From positions 7,748-71,747 of the forward strand of contig JBAYGI010000005.1 in the NCBI GenBank assembly GCA_041666745.1: 64,000 nt of DNA. The letters are read 5' to 3'. The notes below the pieces were generated by a model, which was not told the DNA's origin, made no database searches, and saw only the letters and a program-made list of their open reading frames with translations. Both the position numbers and the translations under genes were made by a program. Each line of letters opens with the position of its first letter. Position 1 is the stretch's first letter. Source of the DNA: Candidatus Magasanikiibacteriota bacterium. GTDB taxonomy: Bacteria; Patescibacteriota; Patescibacteriia; Magasanikbacterales; GWA2-37-8. Shown in pieces: positions 6,891 to 61,483 of this stretch.

Positions 6891-7009
6891 AAATTATCCA
6901 CTTTAAAAGTTAAGGGCACTTGATTTTTTATTGATTTTATTATATCATTCTTTTTGTTGTTTTGTCTATGCAAAATATACCCTCCTTCGCCAAGGCTATG
7001 GCGGGCAAA

Positions 7010-7082
7010 ATGGGCCGGTAGCTCAGCTGGTAGAGCAGATCCCTTTTAAGGATAAGGTCCCGGGTTCGAGCCCCGGCCGGCC
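7010..7082 (+). tRNA. tRNA-Lys (anticodon UUU)
   Basis: GGGCCGGTAGCTCAGCTGGTAGAGCAGATCCCTTTTAAGGATAAGGTCCCGGGTTCGAGCCCCGGCCGGCCCA. Anticodon loop CTTTTAA. No encoded CCA. Confidence 0.8.
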
Positions 7083-7130
7083 CACTAGAAAAAATACTCC
7101 AACTTGTTGGGGTATTTTTGTATATAATTA

Positions 7131-7263
7131 CGGCCGGGGCTCGAACAAAGGGGTGGTGGGGAAAGTATTTCCCCACATTGCTGAGGAAGGCTTGTGGAAA
7201 CCCGAAGGTTTCCGCAGGAGGATCCGCCGACAGGCGGAGACGACGTTCGCGCCCCGGCCGGCC
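7131..7263. other. structured GC-rich element bounded by an inverted copy and a direct copy of the tRNA-Lys 3' end
   Basis: 7131-7146 (CGGCCGGGGCTCGAAC) is the reverse complement of the tRNA T-arm/acceptor 3' half. 7246-7263 (GCGCCCCGGCCGGCCCAC) directly repeats tRNA 7066-7083. The interior carries GC hairpins (GTGGGGAAAGTATTTCCCCAC, GGAAACCCGAAGGTTTCC, CCGCCGACAGGCGG) in an AT-rich genome. Confidence 0.35.
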
Positions 7264-7316
7264 CACAAAGCAAAAACCCTCCGATTTGATTCGAAGGGTT
7301 TTTCTTTTTTATCTCT

Positions 7317-11920: not shown

Positions 11921-14866
11921 TTAAATACTTTGAAGTTCGATTAATAATTTTTCCATCTGTTGTTTGTCCGGATTTTTTTCAGCTGAAACCAACGCTAATT
12001 CTTGACCGATTTGTTTTCTTCTTTTTTTTGACCATTCATCTTTTATTTGCACTATCAATTCGGCCAACTCATCTTTAATCGAATCTTCTTCAATATTTTC
12101 CACCTGAATTTGGGCGATCATTTTTAAATTCTCAAAATCATCTTTGGATTCTGATTCATCAAAAAAACTTCGCCAAACTTCAACAGTATTGGCTTGGTTA
12201 GTATTATAATGTTTTTTTATGATTTCGTAAAGGTGTCCATAAAAACTCCCCTGCCAGCAACCGTCTTTTAAACCTGACCACAAAGAATTGATATATTGCG
12301 GAGAAAAAATCAAAATCATCAAAAATCTTTTTAACAACATGTCCAATCTATCCAAATCCGCCGCGCTTTTACTGTTTTCTTTATCTTTATTCTCTAGATT
12401 ATTTTTTTTGTTTTTGTCAAAACGTTTTATGTCATCTCTCAACACCGACGTGTCCGTACCCAATCTTCCCGCCAACTCTTTTAACCAGTAGTCTCTTTCG
12501 ACTGCAAACGGGATTAAATTGATAATCGGCAAAAGTTCATTGGCAATTTTTTGCTTGGCTTTTGGTTCAGAAGTATTTTTATTTAAAAAAGCCATTTCGA
12601 AAAACCAATGTAATACATCATCGGAATTTTTTACCGCCAAAAACCATACCTCCGGATTTTGTTTCAAACATTCATCGGCATCTTTTCCTTTTCCTTCCGG
12701 AATACGAATCGCTTTCACATTCAATCCCTCACCTAGAGCGATATCTATTCCGCGCTTCGCCGCTGCCACTCCGGCCGAATCACCGTCAAACGCCATGGCG
12801 ATATTGTTGGAATAGCGTTTGAGTAATTTTATTTGTTCTAGAGATAGAGCCGTACCGGAAGATGCCACCACATTTTTCATCCCCGCCTGATGACAAGCGA
12901 TCACATCCATTTGCCCCTCTACTAATACAACCAGATCCTGTGCTTTTATTTCAGTTTTGGCTTTGTCCAAACCATAGATCACTCGCGACTTGTCATAAAC
13001 CAAAGTTTGCGGTGTGTTTACATATTTTCCGCCACTATTTTCGGTCTCTACCAAAACTCGTCCGGTAAAACCAACTACATTTCCATGCACATCCCAAATC
13101 GGAAACATTATTCGTCCGCGGAAACGATCGTAAAATCCTTGTCCGGCGCGCGCCACATCTTTTTTTATTACCAAACCGGCCGCCACCAAATCATCGACTC
13201 CGATTCCTTTTTTTAAAAAATATTTTGTTAATAAATCCCACTGATCCGGGATAAAACCAATTTGCCATTTTTCGATTGTTTCTTTTTTCAAACCACGTTT
13301 TTCCAAATATTCACGCGCACCTTTGGCACCTTCCATCTCAGTCAAAATATGATGAAAAAAATAAGCCGCCTTTTGGTTGATTTCCAAAATGCGATTTTTT
13401 TGACTTTTATCTATTTCACTTCGATAGTTATCTATTTTTACCCCGGCGCGATCAGCCAATAATTTCAAAGTTTCAGGAAAATCCAGCCCCTCCATCTCTT
13501 GTACAAAAGAAAAAATATCTCCACCTTTTCCGCAATTACTAACTGCAAAATTCTCGGTCAAATACGAATGATCTTGTGATACGGTCAGATTAAAAACTGG
13601 CCCTTCAAAACTAGAACTTGTAATTTTTTTAATCGGATAGATAACAAACTTAGTCTCGCCATCCACCAGCCAATCCGTATATTTCGCTTGGACATCCTCG
13701 TACCACATTACATGGTATGACTTTTTATGATGGACTCCACGCTTATCCGTTTTTTCTTGATGTTGAAAAATACTAGGGATAATATTCAATCTCAACAATA
13801 TTTCCTTTAGTTGAAAAACTAAACTGTGTGATATCGTACTAACACTCCTATAATCAGGTCTTGATTTTTTACCACCTTTACTATTATGTCCGTCCCCTCG
13901 AAATATAGCTTCCAACAATATCCTTTGTTTACTAAAAGGCAGATACTCCCAACCATAAGGGATATGTTTATTGGCCGCGCCTTTGCCACATAAATTTTCA
14001 AAAATATTTGCTAAATTTGAATTACAACATGTTATTTCCAATCCAGTTTTTTTACCAGAACGTTTATGAATTGAAGCATTAATATTAAAAATGTTTTTAC
14101 ATAATTCAACAATATCCTGTGCGAATACCGGTTCATGACTGCCAACACTAAATCTTATATATCCACGATGATTACTACCTTCGGCTATCCAATAACCCAC
14201 TAATTTCAAAAAATCTTCGTTAATTTTTATATATTTAGGTAGCGCAAAAATCTTTTTGCCGACATTTTTTTTACCACGATTAAGATAATCAAAAAGTTTA
14301 ATTCTATTAATTTTAATTACTTTATCAACGACAGGATACAATAAATAATCATTCAATTTTAATTCGCCAGCGGAAATTTCTTCTATTTTATAACCTCTAA
14401 AAAATTTATGCGGGCAATTTTGTTTGCATTGTTTTTGGCACAATCTAGTCGCTCTTGATTTCTGTATACAATTCTTAGTTCTAACACAAAACACTTTGTG
14501 ATCATTTGTAATTTTTACTGGCATGTTTGATTTACGAATATATATTTGTCTTAACCCTCCCGAATAATTTCTAATCAGAGCACGAACAACATTGCATAAC
14601 TGTCCTTTGTGAGTATAAACAGAATCACCCACTTTAATATCCTCTATTTTGGTATGTCCACATTTAGTACGAATGAATGTTCCTGCCGGAAAACAACCAA
14701 AACATTTCCAAATTTGCTTTTCGGAATTGACCATGAAAGACGGCGTTTTTTCCTTGTGAAAAGGACACGGCGCTTTCCAATAAATGCCAGCTTTTTTGAG
14801 TGGCACATATTCTTGGATGGTCTGCACAATGTCAAGTTTTTCTTTGATGAGTTGAGTATCAGCCAT
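11921..14866 (-). CDS. dnaG: DNA primase DnaG with an in-frame intein
   Basis: Zn-ribbon CPFHKEKTPSF…KCFG, then the intein, then CGKGGDIFSFV. Primase/TOPRIM motifs follow (…VLVEGQMDVIA…AFDGDSAG…). 981 aa against about 590 aa for an intein-free DnaG. Confidence 0.85.
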   Translation of the reverse strand: MADTQLIKEKLDIVQTIQEYVPLKKAGIYWKAPCPFHKEKTPSFMVNSEKQIWKCFGCFPAGTFIRTKCGHTKIEDIKVGDSVYTHKGQLCNVVRALIRNYSGGLRQIYIRKSNMPVKITNDHKVFCVRTKNCIQKSRATRLCQKQCKQNCPHKFFRGYKIEEISAGELKLNDYLLYPVVDKVIKINRIKLFDYLNRGKKNVGKKIFALPKYIKINEDFLKLVGYWIAEGSNHRGYIRFSVGSHEPVFAQDIVELCKNIFNINASIHKRSGKKTGLEITCCNSNLANIFENLCGKGAANKHIPYGWEYLPFSKQRILLEAIFRGDGHNSKGGKKSRPDYRSVSTISHSLVFQLKEILLRLNIIPSIFQHQEKTDKRGVHHKKSYHVMWYEDVQAKYTDWLVDGETKFVIYPIKKITSSSFEGPVFNLTVSQDHSYLTENFAVSNCGKGGDIFSFVQEMEGLDFPETLKLLADRAGVKIDNYRSEIDKSQKNRILEINQKAAYFFHHILTEMEGAKGAREYLEKRGLKKETIEKWQIGFIPDQWDLLTKYFLKKGIGVDDLVAAGLVIKKDVARAGQGFYDRFRGRIMFPIWDVHGNVVGFTGRVLVETENSGGKYVNTPQTLVYDKSRVIYGLDKAKTEIKAQDLVVLVEGQMDVIACHQAGMKNVVASSGTALSLEQIKLLKRYSNNIAMAFDGDSAGVAAAKRGIDIALGEGLNVKAIRIPEGKGKDADECLKQNPEVWFLAVKNSDDVLHWFFEMAFLNKNTSEPKAKQKIANELLPIINLIPFAVERDYWLKELAGRLGTDTSVLRDDIKRFDKNKKNNLENKDKENSKSAADLDRLDMLLKRFLMILIFSPQYINSLWSGLKDGCWQGSFYGHLYEIIKKHYNTNQANTVEVWRSFFDESESKDDFENLKMIAQIQVENIEEDSIKDELAELIVQIKDEWSKKRRKQIGQELALVSAEKNPDKQQMEKLLIELQSI
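13535..14695 (-). mobile_element. intein (387 aa) with LAGLIDADG homing endonuclease, inserted in the DnaG zinc-finger CFG|CG site
   Basis: The intein begins CFPAGTFIRT… (Cys1) and ends …NFAVSN, followed by a +1 Cys. Two LAGLIDADG-like motifs are present (LVGYWIAEGSNHRGYI and LLEAIFRGDGH). The exteins rejoin as …WKCFGCGKGGD…, the canonical DnaG sequence. Confidence 0.7.
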
Positions 14867-15056
14867 ATACCATTAATTTAACACTGTTTACTATAAAAAA
14901 CAAGAGCAGGTCCAAACCAAAAACGAACGCTTAAATACTTGACAAAAGTGAGAAAAAATGATAGGTTTGGCCCATCCTCAGACGAGTGTTTGGAGGAAGT
15001 TCTGCATACCAACGCAGAATCTAGTTCCCTGACAATTCACAAGGCAGGAAAAATAC

Positions 15057-15554
15057 ATGCTTCCCAGTTTTCACTTGACCGACCTGTTCTTTTGGGTCGG
15101 ATTTCTTTTCCTTTTGCTCTTCGCGGGATACCATCTCATCATCTCCTGGCTTCGACGAGTGGATTCTTTCTCGAAGATCCAGGGAGACGTGAGTGTTGAA
15201 CGGACAATCCGTCACTTCCTGCGACCGGCCATCCTGACACTCCTAGCTATCACTGCGCTCATTTGCGTCACCATCGGCCAGGGCTCGCAGGCGAGCACGC
15301 AGAACGCCTCGCTCAATCCCGAGATGAAGGTCCGCGACGACTTCGTCAAGGCACAACAGGAGGAAGCCAAGACGGTGACCCCCAAGACTGTGCCAGCGAT
15401 GGAAGCCGAACGGAAACAGGTGGAGGAGACAAAGCGCAAACAGGCGGAGGAAGATGCGCGACGTCGCCAGGAACAGTCCGGCGAGGCGCTCAAGAACTTC
15501 CGCCAGCGAGTCATGGAGCGTGGCATCAATCCAACGGACATCACCACACCGTAG
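15057..15554 (+). CDS. membrane protein (two TM helices plus charged C-terminal tail) in GC-rich island
   Basis: 165 aa with GC3-rich codon usage (island about 60% GC against about 35% in the flanks). Two hydrophobic helices and a Glu/Lys/Arg/Gln-rich tail. Confidence 0.55.
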   Translation: MLPSFHLTDLFFWVGFLFLLLFAGYHLIISWLRRVDSFSKIQGDVSVERTIRHFLRPAILTLLAITALICVTIGQGSQASTQNASLNPEMKVRDDFVKAQQEEAKTVTPKTVPAMEAERKQVEETKRKQAEEDARRRQEQSGEALKNFRQRVMERGINPTDITTP

Positions 15555-15605
15555 CACAGAGCTTCGGTTCGGGTTTCCGTTTTTCAAGACAAGAGGAGAA
15601 TTCAG

Positions 15606-16655
15606 ATGAAGAGCTTTTCGATTCGCGCCGCAATCGCACTGATGGCGGCAATCACTCTCTCCACCCTCGCCGGCTGTGAGGGCTGTACCGGACGGGTTCC
15701 GGGCGGCTACGTCGGCATGGTCATGACCCCGAGCGGGTTTAACGGGGACATCCTTGCTCCCGGCAATCACTCCTGCTACGGCAAAGACAGGATGTACCTG
15801 CTCGAAGTGAGCGACACCCAGAAGGCCGTCGAGATCAACCAGTTGACCACCGACAAGATCAACTTCAAGGCGTCCATCGGAGTGCTTTTCTCGGTGGATC
15901 GTGGCAACAAGCAGGCGATCAAAGACGCGTTCGACAACCTCACGGCGGTGCAAACGGCCGACGCGAAGGTGTTCGTAATCTCCGCCGAGTATCTTTTCAA
16001 GACCTACGTCATGGCGATTGCGGACGAGCAGGGAAGAAAAGTATATTCAAGATACGAATCTTCAGAGGTGGTGTCCAACCGCTCGAAGATTGTCGAGGAG
16101 GTCCGAACCGGAGTCGTGACGGCCTTCCAGAACGGCCTAGTCAAGATCAAGCAGGTCACGGTCAACAACGATGACTTTCCGCACGACGTGAATATGTCTT
16201 GGGAGGCGCGTGCCAGGAAGATCATCGACACCGAGACCGAAAAGGCCGAGCAAACCCGACAACTGATCATCAAGAACAATGAGTTGGCGCTGGAGACACT
16301 CAATTACCAGATCGACTTGGTCAAGGCGGCGAACGTCGCCGACTCGAACAAGATCATCGGCTCGTCCATCACGCCCGAGTATCTGGCATACCAACAGATC
16401 AAGGTCATGGGCGACGCGGCCAAGGGTCCGAACAACTGGGGATTCATCCCCTTCACGGACTATGCCAACGGCAAGGTCAACGGTGGCCCGGCCGACCGCC
16501 TGACAAGCAAAGGTCTGGTCGACGCCGAGCTGATCAAGAGGATTCAGGATGCGCGCCAGAAAGGCGCCGACGCCAAAGCCCAACAGGACAAGGCCAAGGC
16601 ACCCACGGCACCGCCTCCCGCCGATCCTCCGGCGGCCGCTCCTGCCACTCCGTAG
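15606..16655 (+). CDS. SPFH/band-7 domain lipoprotein with Pro/Ala-rich C-terminal tail, in GC-rich island
   Basis: Strong SD AGGAGA. Signal peptide with lipobox LAGC. SPFH-like core. C-terminal …APTAPPPADPPAAAPATP. High GC3. Confidence 0.6.
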   Translation: MKSFSIRAAIALMAAITLSTLAGCEGCTGRVPGGYVGMVMTPSGFNGDILAPGNHSCYGKDRMYLLEVSDTQKAVEINQLTTDKINFKASIGVLFSVDRGNKQAIKDAFDNLTAVQTADAKVFVISAEYLFKTYVMAIADEQGRKVYSRYESSEVVSNRSKIVEEVRTGVVTAFQNGLVKIKQVTVNNDDFPHDVNMSWEARARKIIDTETEKAEQTRQLIIKNNELALETLNYQIDLVKAANVADSNKIIGSSITPEYLAYQQIKVMGDAAKGPNNWGFIPFTDYANGKVNGGPADRLTSKGLVDAELIKRIQDARQKGADAKAQQDKAKAPTAPPPADPPAAAPATP

Positions 16656-16782
16656 ATACTACACTCACCCTCGCCAGCTATCAGGCGTAAGATAGCCGAC
16701 GAAGCTCTTTCCCACCAATACGCCCGGTGACGCGTAAGCGTTCCGGTTCATCCGCCCTGTGCATTTTGTTGGCACGGGGCAA

Positions 16783-16825
16783 TCACAAAAGACACCATTT
16801 CAAATGATGTCTTTTGTTTTTATTT
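16783..16825 (+). terminator. rho-independent terminator closing the GC-rich island
   Basis: AAAAGACACCATTTCAAATGATGTCTTTTGTTTTTATTT. Confidence 0.45.
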
Positions 16826-17082
16826 ATAATTTTATTTTTTTCTGTTTATAACCCTCTAAAATTTTCTGAATTTGTTTTTTGAATTCAGGTAAATCGCTTT
16901 TTACGGTTTTCCAAACTACGAGATCATCTATTTGAAAATATTCATGTATCATTTTATCTCTCATAGTCTTGTGTCTTGCCGGATAATAAAAACTTTTCTT
17001 TGTTTAAATCGGCCACATAACTTTCCACCGCCTCAATGCTTTCAAAAATGTGTTCTAAATAAATTACAGGGTCTTTGCGCAT
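16824..17082 (-). pseudogene. HEPN/DUF86 (HepT-like) toxin gene remnant, internally deleted and frameshifted
   Basis: The N-terminal fragment MRKDPVIYLEHIFESIEAVESYV… ends in a stop after 42 codons. In the +1 frame …TMRDKMIHEYFQIDDLVVWKTVKSDLPEFKKQI… carries the conserved R-x4-HxY and C-terminal DUF86 signature. Its start codon lies 1 nt after the MNT stop. Confidence 0.5.
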
Positions 17083-17083
17083 A

Positions 17084-17386
17084 TTAAAATACTCGCACTA
17101 AATCTTTGTTAATATACGGTTTTAATTTTTTATCCACCGAACGAAAAGTAATCACATCAAATTTACGGCCAACTTTTTCTTCCAAAGAATTTTTTAAATT
17201 TACAAAAGCAAATAGGCCAACTTCTTTTTTGAAATCCACCAATAAATCTACGTCACTGTTTTTTCTTTCTTCTCCACGCGCGAACGAACCAAAAATAGAC
17301 GCCCTTTTTACTTGGTGCTTTTTTAAAATCGGAATTATGGATTTTTTTATTTTTTGGCAGGTTGTCATATGTTTGTATATTACCAT
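17084..17386 (-). CDS. MNT-type nucleotidyltransferase (antitoxin of HEPN/MNT module)
   Basis: 100 aa with the minimal nucleotidyltransferase motif GSFARGEERKNSDVDLLVDF. Confidence 0.7.
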   Translation of the reverse strand: MVIYKHMTTCQKIKKSIIPILKKHQVKRASIFGSFARGEERKNSDVDLLVDFKKEVGLFAFVNLKNSLEEKVGRKFDVITFRSVDKKLKPYINKDLVRVF

Positions 17387-17412
17387 ACCAAAACAGATGT
17401 GTCTATATTTTT

Positions 17413-18660
17413 TTATTCTCTACGCAATGCCTCAATCGGATTCAAATTCGCCGCTTTTTTGGCGGGATAAATTCCGAAGAGCAAACCGACAAAAGCGGAA
17501 AAACCCAATGACAATAAAATGGATGAAATTGGTATGGAATACACCCAAGAAAAATTATAATAGATTGCAATCCAATATACTAAAAGAGCTAATATCGCGC
17601 CCAAAGCAACTCCAACTACTCCGCCTAACAATGTCAAAGTAATCGCCTCGCTTAAAAACTGAAACAAAATATCTTTATTTTTCGCGCCTATCGCTTTGCG
17701 CAAACCGATTTCAAAAGTACGCTCGGAAACCGAAACATACATAATATTCATAATTCCCACCCCACCGACTAACAAAGAAACACAAACCAAAGCAACTAAT
17801 AAAAAGGTCAGACCATTGATTACACCGGACAACATATTCATCGCTTCTTCCATTGTGTTTACCGCAAAATCATCTTTATTTGGATCAGTTATATCATGAT
17901 TGGCGCGAATTATTTCTTCCAAATCGGTAACGGTATTTTTTATTTCATTTTTATCTTTGGCGCGCATAATAATCTCACGCACATAATCTATTCCCAAAAT
18001 TCTTTTCTGCATTGTTTTGGTTGGAATATACATCACATTGTCCATATCCATTCCAAAAATCGCGCCCCGTTTGGCGGCAATACCAACTATTTTGAATGGT
18101 TTTCCTTTTATATATACTGATTTTCCAACCGCGTCATCCTCTCCAAACAATGCGTCTTTGGTAACAGCGCCGATCACCGCCACTTGTGACAAAGAATTTT
18201 CTTCATCTTCGGTAAATAATCTGCCGGCAGATAAATTAAAAACTTCCACCTCTTGTAAATTTGCGCCTTCACCCCAGAGTAATGTGGTTTTGGTTGCTTG
18301 ATTGTATTTCACCACCGCTTGACCAATTACCATACCATACGCGGCGGCGATATTTGGATGTTTTCGAACATCATCAATATCCTTATCTTTTAAAGAAGTG
18401 ATAGTGATACCGGTAGATTGTCCCATCGCATTTTCATTGGAAGTTTTTTTTGTTGAAGGAACTTTTGTTTCAATAGTTATTGTATTGGGAGAATAAATTT
18501 CCAGTTGACCCAATACCAACTTGTCCAAACCTTTTCCAGCGGCCATAATGGTAATAACAACCGCGATTCCAATAGCAATACCAAGCACAGTCAAAAGAGT
18601 GCGTGTTTTTTGCGCTTTTAAAGATGATATAGCGAGTTGTAAATTTGTTTTTAAAAACAT
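17413..18660 (-). CDS. MacB-like ABC transporter permease (FtsX domain with large periplasmic domain)
   Basis: 415 aa with N-terminal TM, a periplasmic core of about 200 aa, and three C-terminal TM helices ending …IYPAKKAANLNPIEALRRE. Confidence 0.75.
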   Translation of the reverse strand: MFLKTNLQLAISSLKAQKTRTLLTVLGIAIGIAVVITIMAAGKGLDKLVLGQLEIYSPNTITIETKVPSTKKTSNENAMGQSTGITITSLKDKDIDDVRKHPNIAAAYGMVIGQAVVKYNQATKTTLLWGEGANLQEVEVFNLSAGRLFTEDEENSLSQVAVIGAVTKDALFGEDDAVGKSVYIKGKPFKIVGIAAKRGAIFGMDMDNVMYIPTKTMQKRILGIDYVREIIMRAKDKNEIKNTVTDLEEIIRANHDITDPNKDDFAVNTMEEAMNMLSGVINGLTFLLVALVCVSLLVGGVGIMNIMYVSVSERTFEIGLRKAIGAKNKDILFQFLSEAITLTLLGGVVGVALGAILALLVYWIAIYYNFSWVYSIPISSILLSLGFSAFVGLLFGIYPAKKAANLNPIEALRRE

Positions 18661-24878: not shown

Positions 24879-24951
24879 CGGGCTGTAGCGCAGTTGGTAG
24901 CGCGCGTGGTTCGGGACCACGAGGTCGCAGGTTCAAATCCTGTCAGCCCGA
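24879..24951 (+). tRNA. tRNA-Pro (anticodon CGG)
   Basis: CGGGCTGTAGCGCAGTTGGTAGCGCGCGTGGTTCGGGACCACGAGGTCGCAGGTTCAAATCCTGTCAGCCCGA with C1:G72. Putative promoter TTGAAA-17-TACGCT at 24801-24829. Confidence 0.8.
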
Positions 24952-26409
24952 CAATTCGGCAAAAGAGCAGTTTTTGGAGACCTCTGCCATACTTTGGTAG
25001 GGGTCTTTTAGTTTAAAACTAGCCAAAGTTTTGTTTTCAATAGTAAGGTTCCAAAGTATATTTCCGAGCACATTACGTTTTCTCAAATCATCACGTTGTT
25101 CAAATTCTTTTTTGGCTCTACTGGCGGTTAAAAACTTGTTTTTCGTAAGTTCCAAAGTAGTTTCACTGTTAAAATGTTTTTGTTGTAATGTTTTAAGTTG
25201 GCTTTCAGTAGCGGTAACTTCGTTGTTCAATGATTGTATTTTTGCGTTGTAGAGGTCTTCGGATACGTTACCGGCCAAATAGCTGTCCACGAGCTTGGAT
25301 TGCTTCTCACGGGCAAGCGTAAGCTGTTTGGTGAGATTCTGTAAGGCGGTTTCGGTATAGGTTTTGTCGTGTCCTAACTCTTCCTTTTTAGCTAAATACA
25401 TTATTTCGATTATTTCCTCGTCAAATTCAATATCGCTAAATATTTTAGACATGATATTATCGACACTTTCCGAGCGTAGGTATTTTTTGTGCTGTTCACA
25501 GTTGCCTTTGCCATTAGTGCAGTAATAATAATCGTGGCCTTTTTTGTTGGTAGCGGTTAAGGCACAACCGCAGACATGGCAGTTCATTAAACCACGATGT
25601 AGAAAATTGTGGGTTTGCTTCCGGCTTTTGTTTTTGCCATTGATAATGCTTTGAACATTATCAAAAAGTTCTTGACCGACAATCGAGGTGTGAGTGCCAA
25701 CAAAATATTTTCCGTTCTGCACAACAAAACCGCAATGTACCGGATTAGTAAGCGCGCGATGTAAAACGCTTTTGTGGACTTTGTAACCGCCGAGCGTTCG
25801 CAAACCTTTGTCGTACATGACATTTACTAAATCCTTTATGCTGTAATTTCCTGTTTCGTAAAGATTAAACATTTCCACTATGTTCGGTGCCCGAACCGGA
25901 TCAGGATAAATAATCTTGTTGGCTTTATCATTTAAATATCCAAACGGGGCTTTTGTCGGCCAACCGCCTTTTTCTATTTTCGTTCGTATTCCTCTTTTTA
26001 CGTTCGTGCTTAAATCGTCAACATATTTTTTGGCAATACCAAAATCTAAACTCATGAAAAATTTATCGTCCGAGATATTTTTGTAAATCTTTTCAAAAGT
26101 TCGAATTTCCACAATTAGTTTTCTGTCCATGAACCAAGATAATTGGCCACCGTCCAAAGCGTTGCGAGCGAGGCGGTCTAATTTCCAAACGTATAAAACA
26201 CATTGGCCACGTTTTTCAATATAGGCCATTACTTCTTTGAAAACTGGACGACCCGGAGCTTTGGCCGACATACTTTCGCTAAATATCTTGTCAAAAACAA
26301 TACCGTCCCGTTCAGCAAGGCGTTTCATTTCGTTTGTTTGTGATTCAATTGATAAAACTTGTCGATCCTCGGATTCAGTGGATTTGCGACAATAAGCGAT
26401 GTATTTCAT
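24943..26409 (-). CDS. large serine recombinase (integrase)
   Basis: N-terminal resolvase catalytic domain (MKYIAYCRKSTESEDRQVLSIESQ), recombinase domain, Cys-rich zinc ribbon, coiled coil. The 3' end overlaps the tRNA-Pro 3' end by 9 nt. Confidence 0.8.
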   Translation of the reverse strand: MKYIAYCRKSTESEDRQVLSIESQTNEMKRLAERDGIVFDKIFSESMSAKAPGRPVFKEVMAYIEKRGQCVLYVWKLDRLARNALDGGQLSWFMDRKLIVEIRTFEKIYKNISDDKFFMSLDFGIAKKYVDDLSTNVKRGIRTKIEKGGWPTKAPFGYLNDKANKIIYPDPVRAPNIVEMFNLYETGNYSIKDLVNVMYDKGLRTLGGYKVHKSVLHRALTNPVHCGFVVQNGKYFVGTHTSIVGQELFDNVQSIINGKNKSRKQTHNFLHRGLMNCHVCGCALTATNKKGHDYYYCTNGKGNCEQHKKYLRSESVDNIMSKIFSDIEFDEEIIEIMYLAKKEELGHDKTYTETALQNLTKQLTLAREKQSKLVDSYLAGNVSEDLYNAKIQSLNNEVTATESQLKTLQQKHFNSETTLELTKNKFLTASRAKKEFEQRDDLRKRNVLGNILWNLTIENKTLASFKLKDPYQSMAEVSKNCSFAELSG

Positions 26410-26429
26410 AACAAGAAAAATTAAGATTG

Positions 26430-27239
26430 TTACTGAGGCTTATTTAACACCAAATCAAACAGCCATGCAAGTGCTTTCGGATCGTTCCTAACGTCGTAAG
26501 TTGTTCTTGTTATTTTTCCACAATGTTTGTTATCAAAACTCACCGTGTTAATTTTCGTTTCTTCCGGCAACAATTCCACCACTAAACTAACCAAATCTTT
26601 ATCATACAAAACCGTCCAGCGTTTCAATCCCTTACTGGCAAAATATTTCTTTCGACCTTTTAATCTTCCGTCTTTCAAATTCTTTGTCATATACTTTACC
26701 ATATACCGGCCAAGGTCTTTTACATTTCGTACCGACTTCACGTTAATATTTCCATGTCGCCATATTCGTTTTATTTCGTCATACACTTTTTCAATAAATG
26801 GCAGATTGAAAAACAAAACATGATAGTGAATTACACCCTCTCTTGTTTTGTCTTGAAACTCCGTAACGGCGATGTAATGCAAAAAGTGTTTTTTTGAACC
26901 GCCAACAAAATAGTTAAGGCGTTGCATAGCGACCTTAAAAAAACTACTGGCAATATCCAAATCACGAATATCGTCCTCAAAAGTGAATGTAACAAAAATG
27001 GGCAGGTACGATGTGCCGTTTGCTTTTAACCATTTATGAGCGTTGGAATTTACAAGACGACGGACAGCCGACTTTGCACGATTGGCCGAGCTAATTTCGT
27101 TTTCTTCCGGCGTGGTCAAAGGGTGTCCGGTTGAAGTGTGTTTTTTACGATTGTCGGGGCCATACTTGATTGGCTGTTCCATAAAATCATATTCGACGAT
27201 ATGACCGGCAATCGTTATTTTCTGATTAGTAAATTGCAT
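26430..27239 (-). CDS. rolling-circle replication initiator (HUH Rep, phiX174 gpA/plasmid Rep-like)
   Basis: Motif I PIFVTFTFED, motif II HUH VIHYHVLFF, and motif III with two catalytic Tyr GRYMVKYMTK (YxxKY). Confidence 0.65.
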   Translation of the reverse strand: MQFTNQKITIAGHIVEYDFMEQPIKYGPDNRKKHTSTGHPLTTPEENEISSANRAKSAVRRLVNSNAHKWLKANGTSYLPIFVTFTFEDDIRDLDIASSFFKVAMQRLNYFVGGSKKHFLHYIAVTEFQDKTREGVIHYHVLFFNLPFIEKVYDEIKRIWRHGNINVKSVRNVKDLGRYMVKYMTKNLKDGRLKGRKKYFASKGLKRWTVLYDKDLVSLVVELLPEETKINTVSFDNKHCGKITRTTYDVRNDPKALAWLFDLVLNKPQ

Positions 27240-27269
27240 ATATTTTTCGGCGTAAGTGTTGTTTTAATA

Positions 27270-27400
27270 GAAATAACAGTGAGTGAACGGCGAACCGACG
27301 AGCGAACGAGTGAGCGACGACGAAAGCCTTAATCGGCAAAGCCGGTTTCCACAGGTCGCAATCGGGCAATTATTGCGACCCGTGGAAAGTCAATTAAAGT
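27270..27400. repeat. iteron-like GC-rich direct repeats plus a 16-bp imperfect inverted repeat (putative double-strand origin or recombination site)
   Basis: GAGTGAACGGCGAACCGACGAGCGAACGAGTGAGCGACGACG (degenerate GAG(Y)GAACG units), then TTCCACAGGTCGCAAT…ATTGCGACCCGTGGAA. Confidence 0.4.
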
Positions 27401-27691
27401 GGTGCTGACCGGTCTGGTGGTGGTTCATTGTCCCAGAACAAACCAAAAAGTTCCGCATAGGAATGCAGATATTGATTGGCCTGTTCAATAGTGATAGTTT
27501 TCTTTAAACGGTTTAAAAAATACAGTTGCAGGCGTTCGATGAGTTGTGGACTAAAATCTATGAGCATAGAAAATATTGAGGTTCTATGCCCTTTGTGGAC
27601 GAAATTTCGCTGTGAAACAAAAAAATCCCTTTGTTCTCACGAATCAAAGGGATTTTTTATGTTTACACCAGCCGAGAATTTTCCCGCCTCA

Positions 27692-28732
27692 TCAAACAGG
27701 CTTTAGAAATTCTCTTGATATTTTTGTTGTGTCGTAGATGTTCCGGTCTTTCCAATCATCTCGAAATTCCGGATCGGGTAATAACTTTATTTTTATCCTA
27801 TATTCCATATTTTCTTTGTCAGTTTCATAAAATGGGTCATCGGTAATTTGGAAATAGTCTTTGAGGTGTTGAGTGAGTGTTTGTTTTTGCTTTTTGCGTT
27901 TGGCTTTATCGGTGCCGGACAAGCGAGTGAGTGGAAAAACGCCGTTGCCGAGAGCGAGTAAGTTTAATAACTCCCAGCTTAATTTTGGTTTGGTTTCGTT
28001 GGGTTTGCGTTTGTCGGCAAAGCCCATTTGCTCGTGATTGGCGATGTATTCTTTGGTTTTATGTTTTATTCGCACTTCGTATTGGCTCCGAAAAGCAATT
28101 TCTAAATCTTCCCATTTACTATCCGGTGTTAAGCCAAGTTGTTTGACGGCCTCGGTTGGTTCTTTGGTAGTGGTGATGTTCGGCGATACCTCGTATTCTG
28201 CCAGCAAATTCATGAGCCGATGATGAAATTCATATACAGCACTTTTAATTGAAAACTGGAAACGGTATGACCCTCGCTCTATTCTGTTTTTAATGACTTC
28301 AATTTTCTTTTTAAACGGGATACGCAATATTAAGATTTGGTATGGTGTTTTAGAGAAAGCCAAACCCCAAGTGTCCAATTTCATTTTGTCTTCCTCGTGG
28401 TTTAGATTTTCGATTGGATTGTAAACAAAGCCGATTAAATATTCGTATTGTGCCCATAAGTGAAAGTGGTCAAAGTTGGACATTTGCAATGCAACCATTT
28501 CGTCTGATAGTTTTTGTTTTTCTAAATCCACCATGAAATGATACCAGCGTTTGTTTTCTTCAAAGATTAAGTCCTGTATGAGTGGGGTGGCCTCAACAAA
28601 TGCCATGTAGTCGTAAATTTTGGGAAAATCTACCACAAACACAATATTACCGTCCTTGTTTTTTGTTTCGGTGTAGGTAAGCGAAAAACGACGGTCGAGT
28701 TCTTGTTTGATTGTAGAAGTTGCGGTATTCAT
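27692..28732 (-). CDS. hypothetical protein (possibly cargo of the integrated element)
   Basis: 346-aa ORF with no recognisable motifs. Sits between the putative origin and trmB. Confidence 0.35.
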   Translation of the reverse strand: MNTATSTIKQELDRRFSLTYTETKNKDGNIVFVVDFPKIYDYMAFVEATPLIQDLIFEENKRWYHFMVDLEKQKLSDEMVALQMSNFDHFHLWAQYEYLIGFVYNPIENLNHEEDKMKLDTWGLAFSKTPYQILILRIPFKKKIEVIKNRIERGSYRFQFSIKSAVYEFHHRLMNLLAEYEVSPNITTTKEPTEAVKQLGLTPDSKWEDLEIAFRSQYEVRIKHKTKEYIANHEQMGFADKRKPNETKPKLSWELLNLLALGNGVFPLTRLSGTDKAKRKKQKQTLTQHLKDYFQITDDPFYETDKENMEYRIKIKLLPDPEFRDDWKDRNIYDTTKISREFLKPV

Positions 28733-28780
28733 ACCGCTATATTTTGGACGAAAAAGACGTAAAAGTCAAAGTTGACGAAT

Positions 28781-29584
28781 TTATACAGTCCTTAAGAATT
28801 TATCTGTAAGTTGTGGTTGAGCTTTGATTGGTTTTGATAATGGCCAAATCACTTCAAATTGTGTTTTTATCAAATCAACAAAATCGCGACTGTGAATAAC
28901 AAAACCAAAGCTCTCGGCACGAGAGGAAATAAACGCCACCTTGTCAGCATAAAGCCAATAACTCATATTCCACGTCATACTCTTTGGTGCTAAACGTAAT
29001 TCTCGCAAATGACCCTTACCCACCCCTAAAAACGGATGAGTTTTGAAATCTACTGCTTTGTCTCTCGGCCAAATTCCTCTAATTGAAATGCCTTGCTTTA
29101 TTCGTCTTCGGTTTAAATCCTCTAAATATTCTTTTCCTAAAATCTCAACCATTTCGCTAATTGGCCACATAGTTAAAGTTTCAATATCTTTGTACCACAA
29201 CATATCTTTTAAAACCTGCTTGATACCGGCCACGCCCGAATAGAATTTTATCTTTGGTTCCAAGGCTTTTGTTTTTGAAATTAAGTTTGGCAGTAAGTCG
29301 CTAATCGCTTGGTCGTTTTTCTTTAGATTCTCGATCCTTGAACGGACTAAATGCTGTAAATTTTTTACATCATCAACACTAAATAACTTTTTATTTTCTT
29401 CCTCTTTTTCAATTACCAAACCGCTGTTAATCAATACTTTTAAGCCATCATAAACAGTCGGGCGAGGTAGGTTAAGGTTTTCAGCCAATTGGCGAGCCGA
29501 GGAAAAGCCAGATTCTAAAAGACGGTCATAAATCCTTACACTATTGTCCGAAAACCCAATTTCTTTAAGTATTTTTTCTATCAT
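28781..29584 (-). CDS. TrmB-family transcriptional regulator
   Basis: N-terminal wHTH MIEKILKEIGFSDNSVRIYDRLLESGFSSARQLAENLNLPRPTVYDGLKVL. 267 aa. Divergent from the ABC transporter operon. Confidence 0.6.
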   Translation of the reverse strand: MIEKILKEIGFSDNSVRIYDRLLESGFSSARQLAENLNLPRPTVYDGLKVLINSGLVIEKEEENKKLFSVDDVKNLQHLVRSRIENLKKNDQAISDLLPNLISKTKALEPKIKFYSGVAGIKQVLKDMLWYKDIETLTMWPISEMVEILGKEYLEDLNRRRIKQGISIRGIWPRDKAVDFKTHPFLGVGKGHLRELRLAPKSMTWNMSYWLYADKVAFISSRAESFGFVIHSRDFVDLIKTQFEVIWPLSKPIKAQPQLTDKFLRTV

Positions 29585-51218: not shown

Positions 51219-52313
51219 TCAAATTTCACTCTTTAAATCTTCCAATTTTTTACGAGCTTCGCGTGAAACTTTTTTTGGCACACGAATTTTTATTTTTACA
51301 AAATGATCGGCGCGAGTTGTTCTGCCCAAATGAGAAATTCCGTGTCCTTTCATTTTTATCAGCTGACCGGATTCTATTCCTTCGGGAATTGTCAAAGTAA
51401 CCGGACCGTCGATTGTTTCCACTTCTATTTTGTCACCAAGCACCGCTTGAGTAAAATTGATTTCGTTTTCAGTATATACATCAAAACCTTCACGATGAAA
51501 ATATTTGTTTGGTTTGATATGCGCGCGCACATAAAGATCACCACTTTGACCACCGTGCGGAGCGGCCTCACCATACCCCGACAACCGCAAAGATTCGCCG
51601 GTATTTATCCCAGCCGGAATTTTTACTTTGAGATCACTGGATTTGGCTACGATGCCATCACCACCACAATGTTTGCATTTTTTGCTTGGCCGTTCTCCCC
51701 TGCCCTGACAGGTCGGACAGGTCACGATAGCTTGCATCGTCCCCAAAAAAGTTCTTTGATTTTGCGCGACTTGTCCTTGTCCGCCACAGGTGTTGCATTT
51801 TTCCATTTTACTTCCCGGTTCACCACCGTTTCCACCACAAACATCACAAGCACTTTGTTTGCGCAAATGAATTTCTTTTTCAATACCAAAAGCCGCTTCT
51901 TTAAAATCTAATTCGACATCGACCTGGATATCACTGCCACGCTCTTGTCTGGAACTACGAGATCGTCCTCCTCCGAAAATATTTCCAAAGATATCACCGA
52001 GATCTTCACCACCAAAATCAAACTGAAAACCGCCACCTTGACCACCACGAGCCTGGCGCATAAAATCTTCCCAACTGGCACCACCACCAAAACCGCCTTG
52101 TTGTTCGAAATCCGAACCAAACTGATCGTATTTAGTACGTTTGTCAGTATCGTTAAGCACCTGATAAGCCTCATTCACCTCCTTGAATTTCTTTTCGTCA
52201 CCACCCGGACGATCCGGATGGTATTGCATGGCGGCTTTTTTGAAAGCTTTTTTGATCTCATCGGTGGTGGCATTTTTTTCTATGCCTAATATTTTGTAAT
52301 AATCTTTGGACAT
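51219..52313 (-). CDS. dnaJ: chaperone DnaJ
   Basis: J-domain with HPD, a G/F region, and four CxxCxGxG zinc-finger repeats. Confidence 0.9.
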   Translation of the reverse strand: MSKDYYKILGIEKNATTDEIKKAFKKAAMQYHPDRPGGDEKKFKEVNEAYQVLNDTDKRTKYDQFGSDFEQQGGFGGGASWEDFMRQARGGQGGGFQFDFGGEDLGDIFGNIFGGGRSRSSRQERGSDIQVDVELDFKEAAFGIEKEIHLRKQSACDVCGGNGGEPGSKMEKCNTCGGQGQVAQNQRTFLGTMQAIVTCPTCQGRGERPSKKCKHCGGDGIVAKSSDLKVKIPAGINTGESLRLSGYGEAAPHGGQSGDLYVRAHIKPNKYFHREGFDVYTENEINFTQAVLGDKIEVETIDGPVTLTIPEGIESGQLIKMKGHGISHLGRTTRADHFVKIKIRVPKKVSREARKKLEDLKSEI

Positions 52314-59353: not shown

Positions 59354-59923
59354 TTATTTTATCGTCTGAACTTCATGTAAAAGTACATTTTCTACATATA
59401 TACCACGGGCATAAAAGATCCGTTCTAATTCGTTTTTTAGCTCCATTTCTACCGCATCACGTTTGGTGCTAGTGATTTCCTGTAAAGCAAATTTGCTAAA
59501 TACCATACGCACCCGACTACGAATGGTTGGACGGATAATCTTGGCTACAAAATCTTCGCCAATCTGTTGCCAAATCGAAGGAATCTGGTGAACATCCAAA
59601 CGCAACAATATTGTCCCCTCTACTGCCACACGTAGACCATCTTGAGTCAAGGCGGCAATTGGAATATCCCCCAAAGCCTTTTCATTTTCAACACCAAACT
59701 GGCGACTGATAGTATATTCCAAAGTTTGAACATTAAACAACTTGGCCTTTTGCCAAAACGGAATTTTGAGATGTAGTCCAGGGGTCAGTACTTTTTTCAA
59801 TACTCCCCGTCCCAGATCATAAACACAGGCCACATAACCGGGTGGAACCGAAATAAAAAACCCCTTCAAAACATCATCCATTACAAATGAATACATCAAT
59901 TTGTCCAAAGAATCTCCAGCCAT
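59354..59923 (-). CDS. SPFH/band-7 domain protein
   Basis: 189 aa. …PGYVACVYDLGRGVLKKVLTPGLHLKIPFWQKAKLFNVQTLEY…, an SPFH core without an obvious TM. Confidence 0.55.
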   Translation of the reverse strand: MAGDSLDKLMYSFVMDDVLKGFFISVPPGYVACVYDLGRGVLKKVLTPGLHLKIPFWQKAKLFNVQTLEYTISRQFGVENEKALGDIPIAALTQDGLRVAVEGTILLRLDVHQIPSIWQQIGEDFVAKIIRPTIRSRVRMVFSKFALQEITSTKRDAVEMELKNELERIFYARGIYVENVLLHEVQTIK

Positions 59924-60724: not shown

Positions 60725-61483
60725 TTAAACTACTCTCGGCTGTTCGCTCTGCACAAACTTCTTGATATCTGAAATAGTGCTCATCATTTGAGCTGGAAAT
60801 ATAATAGTGGAATTTTTCTCAACACTAATCTCTGCCATTGTTTGTAAGTTTCTTAGCTGTAAAGCTATTGGGTGAGCCGCTATAATATCCGCGGCATCAG
60901 CCAATTTTTGAGCAGATAAAAATTCACCTTCGGCGGCGATAATTTTGGCGCGCTTTTCTCGTTCCGCTTCGGCCTGTTTGGCCATTGCTCTTTGCATACT
61001 CTCTGGCAGTTCGATATCTTTTATCTCTACTACTGATACCAAAACTCCCCAAGCTTCAGTATGAGCATCCAACACAGCTGCAATTTCTTTGTTGATAGCT
61101 TCACGTTCACTCAAAATTTCATCCAATTGAAAACGTCCGACAATATTTCGCACTGATGTTTGCGCGATTTGGTTGATTGCTGACATCACATTTTCAATAG
61201 CCACAATACTTTTCACTCCATCGACTACTTTGTAATAGGCTACCGCGGATACATCTACTGACACATTATCCTTGGTAATAATTTTTTGTGGTGAAATTGG
61301 CAAAGTTATAACTCGAAAATCCACTTTGCGAACTTGGTCAATAAATGGAATAACCCAATTTAGACCCGGCTCTTTGGTGGTGATGATCTTTCCCAAACGA
61401 AATACTACTCCTTTTTCGTATTGTTGAATAATACGCAATCCGGCCAAGATTATGGCCACTACTACGGCTATTGCTTGATACAT
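60725..61483 (-). CDS. stomatin-like SPFH/band-7 membrane protein
   Basis: N-terminal TM plus the SPFH domain (…[12 protein letters not shown]…[33 protein letters not shown]…). Confidence 0.75.

What the first reader, a model, noticed from the sequence alone, without database searches (positions are those of the whole stretch)
14985..16795. A 1.8-kb island of about 60% GC (two-gene membrane protein plus SPFH lipoprotein cassette) embedded in a 35% GC genome
Base composition changes abruptly at about 14990 and again at about 16790. Both ORFs (15057..15554 and 15606..16655) have extreme GC3 codon usage unlike every other gene in the window. Gene 2 has a strong SD, a lipoprotein signal (LAGC), an SPFH/band-7 core and a Pro/Ala-rich tail. 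Gene 1 is a two-TM protein with a charged tail, i.e. an NfeD/YqiK-style membrane partner plus SPFH pair. The cassette has its own terminator and abuts an MNT/HEPN toxin-antitoxin remnant. This is either very recent horizontal acquisition from a high-GC donor of an SPFH membrane-scaffold module (the host already encodes two SPFH proteins at 59354..59923 and 60725..61483) or a chimeric assembly. Either explanation needs to be established before further interpretation.
Basis: seen in the sequence. Interest (0 to 1): 0.8.

Follow-up and report, generated by a model that had tools for sequence, protein, structure and literature searches.

The report
Foreign phage-type SPFH gene pair island
A 1.7-kb GC-rich stretch in a low-GC Candidatus Magasanikbacteria genome is a real horizontally acquired two-gene unit, encoding a small two-helix membrane protein and a lipid-anchored SPFH scaffold protein of a rare type otherwise seen mostly in phage-like DNA, and related pairs appear as GC-rich islands in several other low-GC genomes.

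Summary
Window 15116..16780 is 58% GC, against 35-36% in the flanks. GC3 of the two genes is 0.71 and 0.79, and no other ORF exceeds 0.47. The tetranucleotide z-score is 11.5.

It is not an assembly chimera. A second assembler reproduces both junctions exactly. Two syntenic relatives (DnaG 85-88% identical) keep the same gene order on both sides but carry different DNA between dnaG and macB. The variable segment is 14907..17412.

Gene 2 is a lipoprotein with an SPFH domain and a long coiled coil, like cage-forming prohibitin, HflK/C and QmcA. It matches no cellular NCBIfam family. It matches phrog_200 and phage proteins at 24-27% identity.

Gene 1 is not NfeD. It is all-helical, with two TM helices, a charged tail and a conserved C-terminal FRxRxxNR motif. 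This partner sits upstream of the SPFH gene in 16 of 18 loci, including two cultured Pseudomonas phages.

The pair is very rare: 2 of 185,579 GTDB species genomes encode it. In at least six other low-GC contigs it again forms a GC-rich two-gene island.

Best reading: capture of a self-contained, moron-like envelope module at an insertion hotspot. The donor and the function are unknown. Interest is moderate.

The parts
14907..17412 (.). Variable segment between the conserved dnaG (11921..14866, -) and macB (17413..18660, -). It contains the GC-rich cassette and the MNT/HepT module.
   Evidence: Nucleotide homology to the syntenic relatives L044 and L046 ends at 14906 (81% identity over 215 nt) and resumes at 17413 (76-77% over about 1085 nt). 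The relatives carry unrelated ORFs at this position.
14939..14967 (+). Putative promoter of the cassette: TTGACA (14939..14944), 17-nt spacer ending in TGa, then TAGGTT (14962..14967).
   Evidence: Read from the sequence. It falls below the threshold of the consensus scan. Equivalent TTGACA-N17-TAnnnT elements lie 90-120 nt upstream of gene 1 in L003, L024, L026, L031, L040 and L041. Its function is inferred, not shown.
15057..15554 (+). Gene 1: a 165-aa partner protein with two TM helices, a charged helical tail and a C-terminal NFRQRVMER motif.
   Evidence: GC3 is 0.71. There is no Pfam, NCBIfam or PADLOC family match. The single-sequence AF2 model is all-helical: H7-42, H46-78, H88-104, H114-154. 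Homologous partners lie upstream of the SPFH gene in other loci. Only 16 relatives were found among 1.84e9 cluster representatives. The positive-inside count puts the tail outside the cytoplasm.
15592..15599 (+). Shine-Dalgarno sequence AGAGGAGA, 6 nt upstream of the gene 2 ATG.
   Evidence: Read from the sequence.
15606..16655 (+). Gene 2: a 349-aa SPFH lipoprotein. It has a signal peptide with lipobox LAGC, an SPFH domain, a long coiled-coil helix, an invariant GPNNWGFIP motif and a Pro/Ala-rich tail.
16656..16784 (+). GC-rich 3' untranslated stretch with predicted hairpins, for example 16754..16780. It is probably residual donor DNA.
   Evidence: Composition. The fold of 16650..16835 has z = -5.3. 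No Rfam match.
16785..16850 (+). Intrinsic-terminator-like element: 16-nt arms (16785..16800 and 16802..16817, 94% complementary) followed by a long T-rich run. It marks the right edge of the GC island.
16824..17082 (-). Degraded HepT (HEPN) toxin gene in two overlapping ORFs: 16954..17082 (N-terminal part) and 16824..16964 (C-terminal part, carrying the Rx4H motif).
   Evidence: HepT-like Pfam E 2.4e-10 matches only profile positions 86-120. ORFs. There is no single open frame across the region.
17084..17386 (-). Intact MNT-type nucleotidyltransferase (antitoxin). It lies in the same variable segment but has host-like GC.
   Evidence: Polbeta E 2e-16 and NTP_transf_2 E 4e-13.

Best explanation
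The island is horizontally acquired DNA, not an assembly artefact. A self-contained transcription unit (promoter, 5' UTR, two genes, terminator) was inserted into a variable intergenic hotspot between dnaG and macB of a Candidatus Magasanikbacteria (CPR/Patescibacteria) chromosome. The insertion happened after this lineage split from relatives whose DnaG is 85-88% identical, and it has hardly drifted towards host composition since.

The cargo is a rare two-gene envelope module with phage relatives.
- Gene 2 is exported and lipid-anchored on the outer face of the cytoplasmic membrane. Like other proteins with an SPFH domain followed by a coiled coil, it most likely assembles into a ring or cage on the membrane.
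- Gene 1 spans the membrane twice. By the positive-inside rule its charged helical tail lies on the same outer side, where the conserved C-terminal FRxRxxNR motif would dock to the SPFH assembly.
- Together they would fence off or stabilise a patch of membrane, or enclose a client protein.

Shown here: the compositional anomaly, absence from syntenic relatives, reproducible junctions, the SPFH fold, the lipobox, and conservation of the gene pair including in phages.

Inferred: topology, oligomeric cage formation, contact between the two proteins, and the biological role. The role is most likely protection of the envelope or exclusion of phages, given the phage relatives and the position next to a toxin-antitoxin module.
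For: Composition: GC 0.58 against 0.35-0.36; GC3 z 7.6 and 9.2; tetranucleotide z 11.5.

Junctions: both are reproduced 100% by a second assembler.

Synteny: L044 and L046 keep the order T2SSE-CCA-MFP-ABC-MacB-MacB | variable | DnaG-sigma70-MurG but carry other DNA in the gap. Homology breaks at 14906 and 17413.

Family relations: no NCBIfam or PADLOC hit. phrog_200 E 1e-29. tblastn hits in 68 cultured phages. Two IMG/VR contigs. A 175-kb phage-like contig context.

Partner gene: a two-TM partner lies upstream in 16 of 18 distinct loci, including the phages HPP-Temi and Ab03. The positive-inside pattern is consistent across the 16 of 18 partners in which two TM segments could be scored.

Rarity: 2 of 185,579 GTDB species genomes, and 16 partner relatives among 1.84e9 representatives.

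Recurrence: GC islands that coincide with the gene pair occur in L003, L005, L024, L031, L041, L019 and, more weakly, L026. Each has its own promoter-like element and terminator.

Background: genomic islands and gene transfer are known in Patescibacteria (PMC12455944).
Against: - No donor was found. The closest relative of gene 2 is only 61% identical and sits in a 47% GC contig.
- No integrase, attachment site, flanking direct repeat or inverted repeat lies at the junctions, so the insertion mechanism is unknown.
- The second assembly may use the same reads as the first. It is independent in method, not necessarily in data. Read-level coverage could not be examined.
- Members of one clade (W, L003, L005, L041) are all GC islands although only 47-57% identical to each other. 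This requires several independent captures from unsampled sources.
- Cage formation, topology, contact between the two proteins and biological role are inferences. No member of this lineage has been studied experimentally, as far as the literature searches showed.
Confidence: 0.75

Rival explanations
1. Assembly chimera: reads from a GC-rich organism were joined into a low-GC contig.
For: The change in composition is abrupt. The source is a metagenome. Read-level support could not be checked with these tools.
Against: - Two assemblers (MEGAHIT k141 contig and a Logan contig) give identical sequence across both junctions.
- A chimera would need two joins that happen to frame exactly one intact promoter-to-terminator unit.
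- No repeat is shared between the island and its flanks.
- The same architecture recurs in other projects and assemblers, including an NCBI MAG and Rifle groundwater contigs.
Confidence: 0.03
2. Long-resident native genes whose high GC is actively maintained, for example by selection on the mRNA or codons, or by biased gene conversion, rather than recently acquired DNA.
For: Whole clades of the family are GC-elevated in low-GC genomes although the proteins are only 30-57% identical. This is awkward for a single recent transfer.
Against: - The pair is absent from the same locus in two close syntenic relatives.
- It lies at different loci in different genomes.
- Family members in ORFan-rich, virus-like contigs and in high-GC contigs match their own flanks. 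GC therefore follows context rather than being intrinsic to the genes.
- No mechanism is known that would hold GC3 at 0.79 in a 36% GC genome.
- Any foreign gene entering a 36% GC genome is expected to look GC-rich.
Confidence: 0.07
3. Last remnant of a larger degraded prophage or other integrated element. The SPFH pair would be a moron (a self-contained promoter-to-terminator unit carried in a phage genome), and the MNT/HepT module would be its addiction cassette.
For: - The family has phage relatives.
- The unit has a moron-like build: promoter, terminator, deviating composition.
- It lies beside a decaying toxin-antitoxin pair inside the same variable segment.
- A serine-recombinase/Rep element elsewhere in the window shows that such elements do integrate in this genome.
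Against: - No other phage gene, integrase or attachment site lies within 14907..17412.
- The TA module has host-like GC, unlike the cassette, which suggests separate histories.
- In other genomes the island is exactly the two genes, set between housekeeping genes.
Confidence: 0.12
4. As to function: an FtsH-type protease regulator like HflK/C, or an NfeD-stomatin-type pair, rather than a phage-related envelope or exclusion module.
For: - The fold is the same as HflK/C, which also faces the periplasm.
- The genes are adjacent and co-directional, with a small membrane partner, as in SPFH-NfeD operons (QmcA-YbbJ, PDB 8z5g, appears among the hits).
Against: - There is no sequence match to the HflK, HflC, QmcA or YqiK families in NCBIfam.
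- The partner lacks the NfeD OB fold.
- The anchor is a lipid, not a TM helix.
- The host already has two ordinary SPFH genes.
Confidence: 0.2

Closest known systems
Cage-forming SPFH proteins (HflK/C, prohibitin, erlin, stomatin, QmcA, flotillin)
   Different: Sequence identity to any solved member is only 9-16%. No NCBIfam family matches. The anchor is an N-terminal lipoprotein cysteine, not a TM helix or hairpin. The invariant GPNNWGFIP motif is specific to this lineage. Oligomerisation was not tested.
SPFH-NfeD operons (QmcA-YbbJ, YqiK-YqiJ, Pyrococcus PH1511-PH1510)
   Same: A small multi-TM protein is encoded next to, and in the same direction as, an SPFH protein. The pair is conserved across distant genomes.
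   Different: The partner has no NfeD OB-fold domain and no protease domain. It is all-helical with a charged coiled tail and an FRxRxxNR motif. It lies upstream of the SPFH gene. Both soluble parts are predicted to be outside the cytoplasm.
PHROG phrog_200 'lipoprotein' / SPFH proteins of phiKZ-like jumbo phages, Nankokuvirus and pf16
   Same: The profile match is significant (E 1.2e-29). tblastn gives 24-27% identity over about 75-80% of gene 2 in 68 phage records. The phage genes are also preceded by a small two-TM protein with a charged tail.
   Different: The relationship is distant. The phage partners lack the FRxRxxNR motif. The function in phages is also unknown.
Phage morons and small genomic islets
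   Same: It is an autonomous unit with a promoter-like element and an intrinsic terminator. Its base composition differs from its neighbours, and it is inserted between conserved genes.
   Different: It sits in a bacterial chromosome between dnaG and macB, not in a recognisable prophage. No mobility gene is attached.
Genomic islands and gene transfer in Patescibacteria (PMC12455944)
   Same: It is foreign DNA detected by composition in a CPR genome from an aquatic or subsurface-type metagenome.
   Different: It is very small, with two genes. This gene family is not mentioned in that study. The same cargo recurs across several genomes.

Membership tests
SPFH / Band 7 superfamily (PF01145) | Sequence match to the Band_7 profile above the curated cutoff | tested here: met
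   33.6 bits against a cutoff of 23.6, residues 31-217.
SPFH / Band 7 superfamily (PF01145) | SPFH alpha/beta domain followed by a long coiled-coil helix | tested here: met
SPFH / Band 7 superfamily (PF01145) | Membrane attachment | tested here: met
   Signal peptide with lipobox LAGC. A cysteine aligning with C27 of gene 2 (three residues after the LAGC cysteine C24) is invariant in all 34 family members. Lipidation itself was not tested.
SPFH / Band 7 superfamily (PF01145) | Assembly into large rings or cages | not testable with these tools
   Only monomer prediction was available.
NfeD-SPFH operon | Partner carries the NfeD C-terminal OB-fold domain (PF01957) | tested here: not met
   Gene 1 has no Pfam or NCBIfam match. 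The predicted structure is all-helical.
NfeD-SPFH operon | Conserved adjacency of a small membrane protein gene and an SPFH gene on the same strand | tested here: met
   Seen in 16 of 18 distinct loci.
HflK/HflC modulators of FtsH | Membership of the HflK or HflC sequence families, with an N-terminal TM anchor and a paired HflK and HflC | tested here: not met
   No NCBIfam hit at E 0.1. The protein is a lipoprotein rather than TM-anchored. The cassette has a single SPFH gene.
PHROG phrog_200 (phage SPFH lipoproteins) | Significant profile match | tested here: met
   E 1.2e-29, 104.6 bits, residues 2-275. 68 phage records matched by tblastn.
PHROG phrog_200 (phage SPFH lipoproteins) | Encoded in a phage genome | tested here: not met
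   The flanks are chromosomal core genes (dnaG, rpoD, macB). No phage genes lie in 14907..17412.
Horizontally acquired genomic island | Atypical base composition and codon usage | tested here: met
Horizontally acquired genomic island | Absent from the orthologous locus of close relatives | tested here: met
   L044 and L046.
Horizontally acquired genomic island | Mobility signatures: integrase, tRNA target or flanking repeats | tested here: not met
   No significant flanking direct or inverted repeats. No recombinase within the segment. The nearest tRNA and recombinase are about 8 kb away, beyond conserved genes.
Horizontally acquired genomic island | Identifiable donor lineage | tested here: not met
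   Best relative is 61% identical. No plasmid DNA match.
Phage moron | Own promoter and factor-independent terminator around the cargo | tested here: inconclusive
   The terminator is clear. The promoter TTGACA-N17-TAGGTT is below the scan threshold, but better versions exist in six related loci.
Integron gene cassette | attC site after the ORF and an integron integrase or cassette array nearby | tested here: not met
   No GTTRRRY-bounded imperfect palindrome in 16656..16790. No integrase and no array.
Two-component spanin (Rz/Rz1) | TM plus coiled-coil inner-membrane spanin (i-spanin, Rz) with a small lipoprotein outer-membrane spanin (o-spanin, Rz1), inside a lysis cassette | tested here: not met
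   Gene 1 gives only weak Rz-like PHROG hits (E 0.01-0.05), likely from coiled-coil composition. The lipoprotein is a 349-aa SPFH protein. No holin or endolysin is adjacent.
Known anti-phage defence systems (PADLOC) | Match to any PADLOC model | tested here: not met
   No hit at E 0.1 for either protein.

The most novel reading that the evidence does not exclude
The two-TM protein plus SPFH lipoprotein pair is a distinct, virus-borne membrane-cage module that moves as a self-contained promoter-to-terminator unit. Ultra-small CPR bacteria have captured it repeatedly, because it gives them an envelope function they need. That function could be blocking phage entry (superinfection exclusion) or stabilising the membrane interface of an episymbiotic cell. 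This would make it a new kind of SPFH system with a non-NfeD partner, and a new case of repeated domestication of a phage gene in CPR.
Probability: 0.25. Interest if true: 0.7.

Novelty: new variant of a known kind. Interest (0 to 1): 0.5.

Why it matters
The island is real foreign DNA, not a chimera, so the contig can be trusted.

It defines a small uncharacterised SPFH module: a lipid-anchored SPFH protein with a conserved helical two-TM partner that is not NfeD. The module links cultured jumbo and Nankokuvirus Pseudomonas phages, phage-like metagenomic contigs and several low-GC genomes, at least two of them CPR. Because cultured phages carry a version of the pair, its function can be tested by knockouts in a tractable system.

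Repeated appearance of the pair as an unameliorated island in low-GC genomes (two of them Magasanikbacteria MAGs) suggests a selectable envelope function. It also marks the dnaG|macB gap as an insertion hotspot in this Magasanikbacteria lineage.

The general phenomena are already known: gene transfer into Patescibacteria, SPFH scaffolds and phage SPFH genes. The advance is incremental.

Tried and rejected
- **Mobile-element ends.** A search for flanking direct or inverted repeats in 14600..17200 found only short chance-level matches.
- **Integron cassette.** No attC-like site and no integrase were found.
- **Structured RNA in the cassette.** Rfam gave only sub-threshold noise in 14700..17100.
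- **Plasmid origin.** blastn of the island against PLSDB found no match.
- **Defence system.** PADLOC gave no hit.
- **Gene 1 homologues.** The word-indexed search found only the protein itself. Homology was recovered by local phmmer against upstream ORFs and by the exhaustive HMMER search.
- **Strain without the island.** An exact-sequence look-up of the MNT protein returned only the same Logan contig.
- **Nature of the 0.7-0.94 Mb marine contigs carrying a relative.** PHROG and Pfam annotation was too sparse to call them virus or cell.
- **Spanin reading of gene 1.** Rejected as a coiled-coil composition effect.
- **Paralogy with the host SPFH genes.** Rejected, with no BLASTP similarity.
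- **afdb50 fold library.** It was unavailable.
- **Literature.** Searches for a function of phage SPFH lipoproteins found only genome annotations.
Full report
**1. Observation**

Fine composition profiles show a single sharp GC plateau. Windows of 200 bp read 0.55-0.63 from about 15100 to 16800, against 0.24-0.39 on both sides. A three-segment likelihood fit puts the boundaries at 15116 and 16780, with GC 0.581 inside and 0.354 and 0.362 outside.

Across the whole window no other 1-kb bin exceeds 0.44. Outside the island, 300-bp windows exceed 0.50 only at about 6950-7350, which holds tRNA-Lys, and marginally at 51551 (0.51).

The two ORFs have GC3 of 0.71 and 0.79. Fifty other long ORFs have mean GC3 0.344, sd 0.048 and maximum 0.468, giving z = 7.6 and 9.2. 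The tetranucleotide profile of the island lies 11.5 sd from the distribution of 147 equal-sized windows.

**2. Chimera or real?**

The window is part of ENA contig ERZ27249449:k141_294892 (80 kb). NCBI names its proteins as Candidatus Magasanikbacteria.

A Logan assembly of run SRR6484324 yields a 3,000-nt contig identical to window 14699..17698. It crosses both junctions. This is independence of assembler. I could not establish whether the underlying reads are the same.

A chimera would also have to frame exactly one complete promoter-to-terminator unit. No repeat is shared between the island and its flanks.

**3. Comparison with relatives**

The closest intein-free DnaG proteins (85-88% identical over the extein) lie on contigs with the same gene order as the window. 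The order is T2SSE, CCA-adding enzyme, membrane-fusion protein, ABC ATPase, two MacB permeases, a gap, then DnaG, sigma-70, MurG, translin and Mur ligase.

Nucleotide homology with the window runs up to 14906, which is 40 nt upstream of the dnaG start. It resumes at 17413, the macB stop. The 2.5-kb segment 14907..17412 is therefore lineage-specific.

In the gap, L044 carries a 124-aa ORF. L046 carries a 346-aa and a 109-aa ORF. All are unrelated to the cassette, and the small ones are also somewhat GC-elevated.

The dnaG|macB gap is thus an insertion hotspot. In the window it holds two things with different composition: the GC-rich cassette, and a host-like MNT/HepT pair whose toxin gene is broken.

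No integrase, tRNA or flanking repeat lies at the junctions. A separate small integrated element lies about 8 kb away, beyond conserved genes. It consists of tRNA-Pro, a serine recombinase, a rolling-circle Rep and a TrmB-like regulator.

**4. The genes**

*Gene 2 (349 aa).*
- It has a signal peptide with the lipobox LAGC.
- It matches Band_7 at 33.6 bits.
- With a 34-sequence alignment, AF2 gives pLDDT 81: an SPFH alpha/beta domain, a 60-residue helix (193-253), a second helix, and then a low-confidence segment. That segment contains the invariant motif GPNNWGFIP.
- Sequence identity to these is 9-16%. A profile of the family reaches prohibitin only at E 4e-4.
- It matches no NCBIfam model and no PADLOC model.
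- It matches phrog_200 ('lipoprotein') at E 1.2e-29.
- By tblastn it matches 68 cultured phages at 24-27% identity: phiKZ-like jumbo phages, Nankokuvirus, pf16, and Erwinia and Alteromonas phages.
- It is unrelated by BLASTP to the host's own SPFH proteins.

*Gene 1 (165 aa).*
- It has no family match.
- A single-sequence model is all-helical: two TM helices and two tail helices. It is therefore not NfeD, which is defined by an OB-fold domain.
- ORFs upstream of the SPFH gene in other loci are its homologues. Local phmmer gives E from 6e-33 down to about 1e-5.
- They share the layout: short N-terminus, TM1, basic loop, TM2, GQG-like turn, charged tail and a C-terminal [DSN]-F-R-x-[RK]-[IVM]-x-N-R motif.
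- An exhaustive HMMER search found only 16 relatives among 1.84 billion cluster representatives, all 131-200 aa long.
- K/R counts are 0-1 in the N-terminus, 3-8 in the loop and 0-4 (mostly 0-2) at the start of the tail, in the 16 of 18 partners where two TM segments could be scored. By the positive-inside rule this puts the tail outside the cytoplasm, on the same side as the lipoprotein. This is an inference.

**5. Distribution of the pair**

The SPFH lineage is rare.
- 37 proteins in the 5.8-billion-protein index.
- 2 of 185,579 GTDB species genomes: another Magasanikbacteria MAG and an unclassified bacterium.
- 2 IMG/VR contigs.
- 18 JGI metagenome loci.

The contexts fall into three kinds.
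- ORFan-dense, co-directional, phage-like contigs. Examples are a 175-kb contig with HNH, Cpn10 and ChaB genes, and marine contigs of 0.46-0.94 Mb of unresolved nature. In these the pair has the GC of its flanks.
- High-GC bacterial-looking contigs (L013, L036). Here the SPFH gene is native-looking and has no partner.
- Low-GC contigs, where the pair lies between housekeeping genes such as thyA, ligA, gatA, pheST and murE-like genes.

In the third kind the pair forms a GC-rich island whose edges coincide with the two genes.

| Locus | GC of pair | GC of flanks |
|---|---|---|
| Window | 0.58 | 0.38 |
| L003 | 0.60 | 0.45 |
| L005 | 0.61 | 0.47 |
| L024 | 0.54 | 0.38 |
| L031 | 0.52 | 0.36 |
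| L041 | about 0.55 | about 0.40 |
| L019 | 0.55 | 0.45 |
| L026 | 0.44 | 0.39 |

In a neighbour-joining tree the island cases fall in three to four separate branches. Within the window's own clade the proteins are only 47-61% identical. The nearest relative (P0002, 61%) sits in a 47% GC contig with no composition contrast.

Seven of the related cassettes carry their own AT-rich TTGACA-N17-TAnnnT element 90-120 nt upstream of gene 1, and each has a hairpin with a T-run after gene 2. This is the build of a phage moron, meaning a self-contained promoter-to-terminator unit.

In the cultured phages HPP-Temi and Ab03, the SPFH lipoprotein gene is likewise preceded by a 117-123-aa charged-tail membrane protein that aligns with the two-TM partners. 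Both lack the C-terminal motif, and only one TM segment passed my hydropathy threshold in Ab03.

**6. Interpretation**

The simplest account is repeated horizontal capture of a self-contained two-gene envelope module. Its natural reservoir includes phages or phage-like elements of higher GC.

A 36% GC recipient makes almost any newcomer look GC-rich. The range of contrasts, from 0.20 down to 0.05, fits captures of different ages. In the window the capture post-dates the split from relatives with 77-81% nucleotide identity in the flanks, and it shows almost no amelioration.

The alternative is a resident pair whose GC is somehow maintained. The empty orthologous loci and the context-dependent GC of the family make this unlikely. 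It is not excluded.

Mechanistically I propose a lipid-anchored SPFH ring or cage on the outer face of the cytoplasmic membrane, with the two-TM partner docking through its tail. Shown: the fold, the anchor signal and the conserved pairing. Inferred: assembly, topology, contact between the proteins, and the role.

The role is unknown. Three things make envelope protection or phage exclusion my first guess: the phage relatives, the position beside a toxin-antitoxin module in a hotspot, and the precedent that phage lipoproteins often mediate superinfection exclusion. That precedent is my own background knowledge and was not tested here. An HflK/C-like control of a membrane protease is the main rival.

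Literature searches found no functional study of this lineage. Gene transfer and islands in Patescibacteria are already documented in general (PMC12455944).

**7. Verdict**

This is a real and well-delimited foreign island, not an artefact. It is an SPFH system, but not an NfeD-SPFH operon and not HflK/C.

I class it as a new variant of a known kind. Interest is moderate (0.5). The recurrence of the same rare cargo as an island in several low-GC genomes, and its link to cultured phages, make it testable. The underlying phenomena are familiar.

Noticed in passing
window 7131..7306 (+): A GC-rich, highly structured non-coding stretch lies just after tRNA-Lys (7012..7085). It has a 10-bp closing stem and three hairpins, followed by its own terminator-like hairpin. 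The fold z-score is -8.3. No Rfam family matches at gathering score or at a convincing E-value. It may be an unannotated small RNA.
   Followed up: partly
window 24879..29584: tRNA-Pro is immediately followed by a large serine recombinase (24943..26409, -), a rolling-circle Rep of the ORF2/G2P type (26430..27239, -), a 346-aa unknown ORF and a TrmB-like regulator. A syntenic relative has CTP synthase next to T2SSE instead. This looks like a separate small integrated element.
   Followed up: partly
window 11921..14866 (-): DnaG carries a Hint/LAGLIDADG intein (981 aa). The closest relatives (85-88% identical exteins) have intein-free DnaG of 594-600 aa. More distant CPR DnaG proteins carry inteins at what appears to be the same place.
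   Followed up: no
L044 7492..7866 and L046 7623..7952 (the dnaG|macB gap of relatives): The same intergenic hotspot in two relatives holds other small ORFs with no Pfam match (124 aa and 109 aa). These ORFs are also GC-elevated (0.42-0.56 against 0.36-0.37).
   Followed up: no
L008 / L017 (TARA scaffold, 938 kb; MDTG01008174.1, 712 kb): Very large marine contigs carry a relative of the pair. It sits amid dense co-directional ORFans, a Ser/Thr kinase, a spore-photoproduct-lyase-like gene and an ADP-ribosylglycohydrolase. Whether these are giant viruses, megaphages or cells was not resolved.
   Followed up: partly
L003 7400..8000 and L041 601..900: Other short GC-rich islets with small unannotated, partly secreted, ORFs lie near the SPFH pair in two other low-GC contigs. 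This suggests that such mini-islands are common in these genomes.
   Followed up: no
L013 5983..6975 and L036 10001..10975: In two high-GC bacterial-looking contigs, the SPFH lipoprotein of this lineage has no upstream two-TM partner. The partner is therefore not obligatory everywhere.
   Followed up: partly
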